Positions 59,882 to 60,830 of a DNA stretch of 64,000 bases are shown in pieces. The DNA comes from an uncultured virus (IMG/VR IMGVR_UViG_2675903308_000004) (Duplodnaviria; Heunggongvirae; Uroviricota; Caudoviricetes), in the IMG/VR virus record IMGVR_UViG_2675903308_000004, one strand, 5' to 3'. The notes below the pieces were generated by a model. That model saw only the letters and a program-made list of their open reading frames with translations. It ran no database searches and was not told the origin of the DNA. Each line of letters begins with the position of its first letter. The first letter of the stretch is position 1. Made by a program: the position numbers and the translations under genes.

Positions 59882-60252
59882 TGCAAAATAAGTTTGATTA
59901 TTAATGAATTGAAGTCTATTTGAAAGTGGTACTTATTCAAAAGAACAAACAGTAAGATTGCGATTCCTAATATGTTATCTATAATTCTCCATGTAAACCA
60001 CTTCTTAGGGATAAGGCTTAAAACAATCAATGCAAGAAAACCTATCCATTGAGAGCTTATTAAACCTATGAAGCACAATATAAGGTAGATCCAGTTGCAC
60101 ATTCTCCAAACAGCGAAAACCGGGCTTATCTCTGTGAGATCGTTTTTGTCCTTATACTTTTCCACAGCAGCGAAAACTTTTTTGCAAGCTGCCAAATTCA
60201 GCACTTCAAAGAAAAGGCAGAAGGCTATCAGTATATAAAATATTGTTGTCAT
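59878..60252 (-). CDS. Hypothetical membrane protein
   Basis: Several hydrophobic segments. Confidence 0.55.
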   Translation of the reverse strand: MTTIFYILIAFCLFFEVLNLAACKKVFAAVEKYKDKNDLTEISPVFAVWRMCNWIYLILCFIGLISSQWIGFLALIVLSLIPKKWFTWRIIDNILGIAILLFVLLNKYHFQIDFNSLIIKLILQ

Positions 60253-60830
60253 TCTTGCACCTTCTTTACATTAAACATCAAATAATCAAACCACAATTCA
60301 ATGAATTGCTGCCCGAAATACTTTGCTTTCTCTCTTGATTCTTGCCAAAGCCGAGAGCCGACACTCGCATGCGTATCCGAGGGGGCGTCATCCGTAAGCG
60401 CATAACCGAAGCCCGCACGATTGTTTAGAGCGTCAATAATTGGAATATACACAAGCCCTTCTGTTTCTTTGATTTCTCTCTCAGTCCACAAAGCAAACCA
60501 GGGGAAATAGAAACGACTGTTACCGCTTGCATCCGGTTTAGGCTGGTAATTCTTACCCCACAAAGCCCGGCTGATTGTTTCAAGTTTGATTAAGGCAATA
60601 ATGCCTTTTCTTACTCCAGCAGAGCGCAAAGCCTTCTCGTCAATAGGGGAACACTTTAAAGCAGCACACGCATCCTCATAACTTCGGATTGTCGTGTAAT
60701 CATCAAGGGTAGGAGTTGGTTTCTTTTCACCTTTGCAGAACAAGGCTACCAACACGTTTTTCACTTCTTCACTTTTAGCAACGTCTAAAGCTGCCTTTAC
60801 TTCAATCTCAGTAATTTCAATTACTTTCAT
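60249..60830 (-). CDS. DGR target 2: early-region protein with an internal variable repeat
   Basis: RAGFGYALTDDAPSDTHASVGSRLW matches the TR/VR1 peptide frame. Confidence 0.85.
   Translation of the reverse strand: MKVIEITEIEVKAALDVAKSEEVKNVLVALFCKGEKKPTPTLDDYTTIRSYEDACAALKCSPIDEKALRSAGVRKGIIALIKLETISRALWGKNYQPKPDASGNSRFYFPWFALWTEREIKETEGLVYIPIIDALNNRAGFGYALTDDAPSDTHASVGSRLWQESREKAKYFGQQFIELWFDYLMFNVKKVQE
60345..60421 (-). repeat. DGR variable repeat VR2 (remote)
   Basis: 77-bp ungapped match to TR 21806-21882; 14 mismatches, all at TR adenines. Confidence 0.9.

What the first reader, a model, noticed from the sequence alone, without database searches (positions are those of the whole stretch)
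60249..60830. Second, remote DGR target in the early/recombination module, 38.5 kb from the template repeat
Seen: 60345-60421 aligns without gaps to TR 21806-21882, and all 14 mismatches fall on TR adenines. It differs from VR1 at several variable codons (YALTDDAPSDTH vs CANTDCAPSYAN), so it is not a simple copy of VR1. The host gene is a 193-aa protein with no signal peptide, between NinB-like/RecT genes and replication genes, and the VR is followed by about 30 more residues. Known: adenine-specific mutagenic retrohoming defines DGRs, and phage targets are typically receptor-binding proteins. Inference: one TR diversifies both a virion adhesin and an intracellular early protein, perhaps a variable binder of host defence or regulatory proteins.
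Basis: partly seen in the sequence, partly recalled or inferred. Interest (0 to 1): 0.92.

Follow-up and report, generated by a model that had tools for sequence, protein, structure and literature searches.

The report
Second, remote hypermutated phage gene
A gut Bacteroidales prophage uses one mutagenic retroelement to keep rewriting both its tail adhesin and a small early-region protein 38 kb away; this is real, but a relative of the same protein was already described as a distant second target in 2021, and what it binds is still unknown.

Summary
Confirmed. 60345-60421 matches the template repeat (TR) over 77 nt without gaps, and all 14 mismatches are at TR adenines. Among 19 close alleles all 19 differ, and 18 of 19 variable columns are TR adenines. 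In 21 of 23 relatives tested, the homologue matches the TR of its own genome's DGR. The gene is under purifying selection outside the VR.

The class is published. The 37%-identical LoVEphage homologue appears to be the distal Quimbyvirus target (Benler 2021), and Dahlman 2025 reports four more phage species. The scan found this layout before on other DNA.

Added here: (i) the lineage seems to have swapped its DGR cassette and re-fitted this gene with a shorter VR; (ii) a confident model shows likeness to the tail adhesin only in the VR segment and has no PDB match, so a lectin fold is unproven; (iii) this copy's RT is frameshifted.

Best reading: a cytoplasmic early variable binder, probably acting on host defence or regulatory proteins. 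The function is inferred.

The parts
60249..60830 (-). Remote DGR target gene (target 2), 193 aa, phrog_11581, unknown function; N-terminal helical pair (aa 8-31), core aa 46-190
60345..60421 (-). VR2, 77 nt (aa about 137-162); covers only the 3' two-thirds of the TR
60346..60362 (-). 3' end of VR2, identical to the 3' end of VR1 and differing from the TR at fixed adenine sites: candidate IMH homing signal (function inferred)
21803..21917 (-). Template repeat (TR); core shared with VR2 is 21806-21882; a 71-nt part is identical in 21 IMG/VR loci
22001..22115 (-). VR1, 115 nt, at the 3' end of the tail gene
21986..23413 (-). Target 1: 475-aa tail protein (phrog_5302), the proximal DGR target in the tail module
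20786..21688 (-). DGR reverse transcriptase (RVT_1); frameshifted in a homopolymer run near 20925 in this copy (300 aa; 346 aa in 18 of 21 related loci)
60965..63483 (-). Upstream early recombination genes: RecT, MBL-fold hydrolase, phrog_2113, NinB
56173..60252 (-). Downstream genes: 124-aa hydrophobic ORF, phrog_12688, phrog_11501, replisome organizer, DnaC-like loader, pyrophosphatase, Dam methyltransferase

Best explanation
This is a true second target of the prophage's DGR. Shown: A-restricted hypervariability, a cognate TR and RT on the same prophage, and alleles independent of VR1. Inferred from DGR biology: the RT copies the TR RNA with errors at adenines, and the cDNA homes in trans to VR2 by homology and a 3' end shared with VR1, so distance does not matter. 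The product is a soluble 193-aa protein made from the early (recombination/replication) operon. Its conserved helical core displays a loop of about nine variable residues, and an exchangeable N-terminal module probably serves oligomerisation or anchoring (inferred). Most likely it is a cytoplasmic variable binder that acts early in infection or induction on host proteins that differ between strains, such as defence or regulatory proteins. It would complement the tail VR: one changes which cell the phage enters, the other what it must neutralise inside. Step odds: real DGR target 0.97; selected, functional binder 0.9; non-virion and intracellular 0.7; partner is a host defence or regulatory protein about 0.5.
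For:: 19 of 19 alleles distinct; 18 of 19 variable VR columns are TR-A; diversity 0.416 at TR-A sites, 0.002 at other VR sites, 0.012 outside; 40 distinct VR2 alleles in 42 kept loci, none shared with 18 VR1 alleles. VR1 and VR2 of the same genome differ at 8.8 of 15 variable sites (6 genomes) against 9.3 between genomes; dN/dS outside the VR is 0.10-0.20 in 4 of 5 comparisons (the fifth saturated); 21 of 23 homologues match their own genome's TR, with 246 of 254 mismatches at TR-A (summed by hand). Versailles 14/14 and LoVEphage 17/17 on different TRs; the gene follows RecT-MBL-NinB in 21 of 26 loci; kept as a target across an apparent cassette exchange; a mouse-gut contig (X2, possibly the same source) differs over 2001 nt at 5 sites, all TR-A sites of VR2; the same hypothesis is published for relatives.
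Against: No binding partner, expression or localisation data. No Pfam or NCBIfam family. The immediate neighbours are recombination and replication genes, not a defence island; Dam is 3.4 kb away and RtcB 18 kb away. A large infant-gut survey found no DGR targeting known anti-defence proteins (10.64898/2026.03.05.709809, passages), although it searched near the RT. The residue spectra of VR1 and VR2 do not differ at 22 of 23 A sites, so there is no sign of target-specific selection inside the VR. This copy's RT is frameshifted.
Confidence: 0.6

Rival explanations
1. Minor virion or lysis-released adhesin encoded out of place: a head or tail decoration, or a soluble receptor-masking protein, that binds surface glycans or mucus like other phage DGR targets.
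For: Most annotated phage DGR targets are tail or head proteins (passages). Versailles annotates the homologue as 'tail protein'. The VR peptide has the same frame and residue spectrum as the tail VR. The remote second target of Toutatisvirus was proposed as a receptor-binding protein (10.1101/2024.10.15.618418).
Against: It sits in a fixed slot of the early operon in 21 of 26 loci. Profile likeness to the tail protein is limited to 39 VR columns, which probably explains the 'tail protein' label (50 of 119 family members hit phrog_5302).
Confidence: 0.18
2. Intracellular sensor or inhibitor aimed at competing phages and mobile elements (exclusion, or the lysis-lysogeny choice) rather than at host defence.
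For: Same anatomy as the best reading. Bacterial DGRs are linked to putative antigen sensors (PMC10907252, search listing only). The N-terminal module varies across the family.
Against: It lies in a lytic early operon, not a moron or immunity region, so it is unlikely to be made in lysogens (inference from position). No effector domain is fused in the 106-338 aa homologues seen; longer fused forms were not searched.
Confidence: 0.15
3. Bystander target: the gene once captured a TR-like patch, is rewritten passively, and the variation has no use.
For: The mutation spectrum of VR2 matches VR1. One relative carries a stop in the VR (L052).
Against: VR2 tracks a different TR in each lineage at non-A positions across homologues down to about 32% identity. 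The gene was re-fitted after an apparent cassette swap. It is kept despite the risk of VR2-TR deletion, seen once in L066.
Confidence: 0.07

Closest known systems
Distal second DGR target of Quimbyvirus/LoVEphage (Benler et al. 2021, PMC8008677; passages and two supplements seen)
   Same: Same protein family: LoVEphage QVQ57199.1 is 36.7% identical over 96% of the query and is a 17/17 A-only target of its TR. That TR matches, by eye, the Quimbyvirus TR in the paper's supplement. The three-frame RT and the methyltransferase, DUF2400 and RtcB neighbours fit the paper's description. Remote, non-structural region; counter-defence role proposed.
   Different: Different phage group (Versailles-like backbone) and a different RT/TR lineage. 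The slot is between NinB and the replication genes, not in a methyltransferase island. VR2 is about 75 nt, not about 110. The paper calls the target a C-type lectin; my fold searches could not confirm that.
Four induced gut prophage species with a second, distal VR (Dahlman et al. 2025, PMC12629997; passages and part of the supplements seen)
   Same: Gut prophage DGR with a second VR far from the RT cassette, near DNA methyltransferases; arms-race role proposed.
   Different: Whether this phage species is among the four could not be checked: the figure and tables are not held.
Bacteroides phage Versailles gp WAK79127.1 (ON453897)
   Same: 52.6% identical, same gene order, and a 14/14 A-only target of its own TR.
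   Different: Annotated 'tail protein' by HHpred. Full-length VR. Its RT is only 44-46% identical to the window's.
Toutatisvirus second target and tentaclin two-target DGRs (10.1101/2024.10.15.618418; PMC10743442; passages seen)
   Same: One TR, two targets, one of them 17.5 kb away.
   Different: Those targets carry DUF6273 C-lectin domains. No DUF6273 match was seen in 119 members of this family.
Bordetella phage BPP-1 DGR (mtd-avd-TR-brt; recalled, plus passages of PMC12875486)
   Same: A-specific TR-to-VR mutagenesis; fixed TR/VR differences at the 3' end.
   Different: Single proximal virion target. It has avd and a stem-loop after IMH; neither was found here.

Membership tests
DGR variable target | Ungapped TR-VR homology with mismatches only at TR adenines | tested here: met
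   14 of 14 mismatches at A; P 9.7e-10
DGR variable target | A-restricted hypervariability among close alleles | tested here: met
   18 of 19 variable columns at TR-A in 19 alleles found by protein search; 40 distinct alleles of 42
DGR variable target | Cognate RT next to the TR on the same element | tested here: met
   RVT_1 at 20786-21688, frameshifted in this copy; 346 aa in 18 of 21 relatives; TR, VR1 and VR2 on one complete provirus G001
DGR variable target | IMH at the VR 3' end differing from the TR's IMH* | tested here: inconclusive
   VR1 and VR2 share a 3' end with fixed differences from the TR; its homing role cannot be tested here
BPP-1-type DGR | DNA stem-loop just 3' of IMH | tested here: not met
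   Folding z-scores 0.08 (VR1) and 0.09 (VR2); absent at both targets, so it does not tell them apart
BPP-1-type DGR | avd accessory gene in the cassette | tested here: inconclusive
   No room for a gene between target 1 and the TR; the two ORFs after the RT have no Pfam or NCBIfam match
C-type lectin-fold DGR target (Mtd/TvpA/DUF6273) | CLec fold displaying the VR | tested here: inconclusive
Quimbyvirus/LoVEphage distal target family (phrog_11581) | Full-length homology | tested here: met
   36.7% over 96% of the query, E 2e-16; phrog_11581 E 1e-76
Quimbyvirus/LoVEphage distal target family (phrog_11581) | Remote from the RT, outside the structural module | tested here: met
   38,463 bp from the TR, in the early operon
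Quimbyvirus/LoVEphage distal target family (phrog_11581) | [quoted passage not shown] | tested here: not met
   Only Dam lies within 7 kb; the cytosine MTase and RtcB are 18-21 kb away. This describes the Quimbyvirus locus and does not define the protein family.
Virion receptor-binding protein | Present in the particle | not testable with these tools
   Needs proteomics; the gene lies outside the structural module
Anti-defence protein | Binds or inhibits a host defence system | not testable with these tools

The most novel reading that the evidence does not exclude
phrog_11581 is a DGR display scaffold that is neither C-lectin nor Ig fold. It took only the VR hairpin and serves temperate Bacteroidota phages as an intracellular, antibody-like counter-defence protein, whose binding loop is re-randomised to fit each new host's defence proteins. 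It is valuable enough to be re-fitted to a new template after the whole DGR cassette was replaced by one related to crAss-like phage RTs.
Probability: 0.25. Interest if true: 0.8.

Novelty: new member of a known kind. Interest (0 to 1): 0.42.

Why it matters
Phage DGRs are usually read as host-range devices for tail fibres. A conserved early, apparently cytoplasmic target suggests that phages also hypermutate a protein for the conflict inside the cell. The idea is in print but untested. This locus makes it testable: a small soluble protein, dozens of natural alleles differing at about nine residues, and cultured relatives (Versailles, LoVEphage-like BI-TP1 and PV4-TP1). Tools that look only near the RT miss these targets (PMC8144416), and a VR-only match mislabels them 'tail protein'. 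If the fold is not a C-lectin, it widens the known set of DGR scaffolds.

Tried and rejected
Chance or a plain duplication of VR1: rejected.

Gene conversion from VR1: no sign; within-genome distance 8.8 against 9.3 between genomes, on only 6 genomes.

Family libraries: Pfam on 119 members gave no real family; ESM Atlas gave unnamed clusters only.

Sequence signals: the sigma-70 promoter and terminator scan was at shuffle level; no hairpin 3' of either VR.

Expression and within-sample variation: only contigs were available. An RNA-library contig spans the gene, but that does not show transcription.

Lipoprotein signal at Cys32: rejected; the N-terminus is charged and the Cys is not conserved.

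Co-divergence of RT and target 2: Mantel rho 0.67 over 18 genomes, but kin share history and the window clade breaks the pattern, so I do not use it as evidence of co-evolution.

The oligomeric state was not modelled and remains open.

Full report
1. Observation. A self-comparison of the window finds three copies of one repeat: TR 21803-21917, VR1 22001-22115 and VR2 60345-60421. VR2 aligns to TR 21806-21882 over 77 nt without gaps. All 14 mismatches fall on TR adenines of the coding (-) strand; with 23 A in 77 nt, P = 9.7e-10. VR2 encodes about aa 137-162 of a 193-aa ORF (60249-60830, -), in the same frame as VR1 in the tail gene. 31 residues follow it, and the distance to the TR is 38,463 bp. 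The ORF is phrog_11581 (unknown function), with no Pfam or NCBIfam match and no hydrophobic segment (highest 19-residue hydropathy 0.86). It lies between RecT, an MBL-fold hydrolase and NinB on one side and a replisome organizer, DnaC-like loader and Dam on the other.

2. The site is hypermutated. A protein-based scan of IMG/VR gave 26 loci. I compared the 18 full-length loci of 95% identity or more plus the window, leaving out 5 divergent and 3 partial ones. All 19 VR2 alleles differ; 18 of 19 variable VR columns are TR adenines; diversity is 0.416 at TR-A sites, 0.002 at other VR sites and 0.012 outside the VR. Adding 35 metagenome loci and dropping 12 with flanks under 93% identical left 42 loci with 40 distinct alleles. 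They have 574 mismatches in 920 A sites and 8 in 2160 non-A sites; the motif search fixes some non-A positions, so one search is the unbiased figure. None of the 40 equals any of 18 VR1 alleles (18 kept of 28). In 6 genomes holding both VRs, VR1 and VR2 differ at 8.8 of 15 variable sites, against 9.3 between genomes, so they vary independently. A mouse-gut contig flagged as a possible source (X2) differs from the window over 2001 nt at 5 sites, all TR-A sites in VR2. Outside the VR, dN/dS is 0.10-0.20 in 4 of 5 divergent comparisons, the fifth being saturated; among close alleles the changes are 14 synonymous and 13 non-synonymous.

3. State of the cassette. A 71-nt part of the TR occurs unchanged in 21 IMG/VR loci. 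The RT is 346 aa in 18 of them, 348 aa in one, and not readable in two. In the window the frame shifts in a homopolymer run near 20925, giving 300 aa. This copy may be frozen or mis-sequenced; I could not tell which. The complete provirus G001 carries TR, VR1 and VR2 in the same layout. No stem-loop follows either VR, and no avd was recognised.

4. The pairing is old and maintained. I searched 19 of 21 GTDB loci and 21 of 26 viral loci for a DGR RT; 15 of 19 and 8 of 21 had one, including 6 of 6 viral records at least 90% complete. Of these 23, 21 have a TR matching the homologue's VR, with 246 of 254 mismatches at TR-A (summed by hand). The exceptions are L023, whose fragment holds another RT type, and L066, where the gene runs straight into the RT. 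Versailles (14/14) and LoVEphage (17/17) also fit their own, different TRs. The gene follows RecT-MBL-NinB in 21 of 26 loci examined.

5. Apparent cassette swap (inference). Within the Versailles-like group the RTs are 69-100% identical to the Versailles RT and usually more conserved than target 2. The window's RT is only 43-50% identical to that group, while its RecT, NinB and MBL are mostly 55-77% and target 2 (aa 1-118) 46-67%. Its best GenBank matches are crAss-like phage RTs at 62-64%, against 44% for Versailles. A tree of 21 RTs places the window clade among crAss-like and other RTs; holding it together with the Versailles-type RTs is rejected only modestly (AU p = 0.037, quick tree, long branches flagged). 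The direction of transfer is not shown. In this clade VR2 matches only the 3' 73-77 nt of the TR, with a remodelled 5' part, against about 110 nt elsewhere. The simplest reading is that the phage changed its DGR module and target 2 was re-fitted to the new template. That argues against a bystander.

6. The protein. The family is large: 2413 proteins at E<=0.001 and 1157 clusters at 50% identity. In GenBank phages it was found only in Bacteroides or Phocaeicola phages, apart from one short match. A 119-sequence alignment shows a conserved core from about aa 46, while the N-terminus comes in at least two types or is missing. The model from it has pLDDT 87, with an N-terminal helical pair, a long helix 75-91, a small sheet, a lower-confidence VR loop (blocks 71 and 65) and two C-terminal helices. 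Profile comparison with three tail targets aligns only the 39 VR columns. Fold searches found no solved relative; BFVD gave only uncharacterised phage proteins. I had no positive control, so the C-lectin assignment is inconclusive, neither confirmed nor excluded.

7. How it most likely works. Shown: rewriting of VR2 at TR adenines, independence from VR1, conservation of gene, slot and TR pairing. From established DGR biology (recalled; passages of PMC12875486): error-prone cDNA from the TR homes to any homologous VR. Inferred: early cytoplasmic expression and a variable loop (mainly aa 143, 145-148, 152-154, 156) that binds strain-variable host proteins, most plausibly defence or regulatory factors. 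Confidence 0.6. Rivals are a misplaced virion or released adhesin (0.18), a sensor of competing phages (0.15) and a bystander (0.07). Against the best reading: no partner or localisation data, no defence island next to the gene, and no difference between VR1 and VR2 spectra at 22 of 23 A sites.

8. What is known. Benler 2021 (PMC8008677; passages, supplements 1 and 2) describes a Quimbyvirus DGR with a three-frame RT and a second, distal, non-structural target near methyltransferases, a MutY-like nuclease and a tRNA ligase, and proposes a role in phage-host conflict. LoVEphage MW660583 shows the same RT layout, neighbours and, by eye, the same TR; its distal target is the 36.7% homologue of this protein. 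The match of that gene to the paper's ORF is my inference. Dahlman 2025 (PMC12629997; passages, 3 supplements searched, one unreadable, figure not held) reports four induced prophage species with a distal second VR. Roux 2021 (PMC8144416, passages) notes that remote targets escape RT-centred scans. Two-target DGRs with DUF6273 domains are described in PMC10743442 and 10.1101/2024.10.15.618418 (passages). Passages of PMC12694917, PMC9727126, PMC8525569, PMC13596623, 10.64898/2026.05.08.723808 and 10.64898/2026.03.05.709809 gave no function for this family. Six searches found no experimental study of it, and none describing the cassette swap; the library lacks most subscription papers, and bioRxiv supplements were closed. 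The scan itself holds 24 findings with these words, on other genomes, and one on this protein family.

9. Verdict. It is a new member of a published kind. The re-fitting after a cassette swap and the unresolved fold are modest additions. Function is open and testable. Interest 0.42.

Noticed in passing
window 20786-21688 (-), break near 20925: The DGR RT is frameshifted in a homopolymer run in this copy only (300 aa; 346 aa in 18 of 21 relatives). The DGR may be switched off here, or it is a sequencing error.
   Followed up: partly
window TR 21806-21882; VR positions 4, 8, 36, 63, 70: TR adenines preceded by C are almost never kept as A in 40 VR2 and 18 VR1 alleles, including synonymous position 8 (G in 58 of 58), although flanking adenines stay A about half the time. 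One further VR1 allele keeps A there (L036). Protein selection does not explain position 8; RT context bias, patchy integration or RNA-level change are candidates.
   Followed up: partly
L066 4995-6831: In a Prevotella MAG the target-2 homologue runs directly into a TR-like end and the RT, then lysis genes. It looks like recombination between VR2 and the TR that deleted the replication and virion genes.
   Followed up: partly
window 37631-44523 (+): Accessory island on the opposite strand between head genes: cytosine methyltransferase (39120-39923), RtcB ligase (41150-42337) and ADP-ribosylglycohydrolase (42598-43374). Versailles has a hydrolase and a methyltransferase at the same place.
   Followed up: no
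window 44610-47072 (-): 820-aa gp7-like minor capsid protein with a weak C-terminal match to an ADP-ribosyltransferase-like effector model (E 2e-5); resembles MuF polymorphic toxins (recalled), with the nearby hydrolase as possible immunity.
   Followed up: no
window 59878-60252 (-): 124-aa hydrophobic ORF overlapping the stop of target 2; present in only 3 of 26 related loci, so a variable passenger.
   Followed up: partly
window 19977-20668 (-): Two small unknown ORFs (phrog_11557, phrog_19665) directly after the RT; similar-sized ORFs follow the RT in Versailles and L066. Possible DGR accessory genes in place of avd.
   Followed up: no
L052 gene at 2526: A relative's target 2 has an in-frame stop inside the VR from a non-adenine change.
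   Followed up: no
L088 2380-3036: A second DGR with a related TR in genome G003 (RT 61% identical), whose VR lies about 540 nt from its TR rather than about 200.
   Followed up: no
window 199-12760: Left of the lysis genes: a tyrosine integrase (9535-10875), a primase-like gene and two AraC regulators; possibly a second mobile element next to the prophage end.
   Followed up: no
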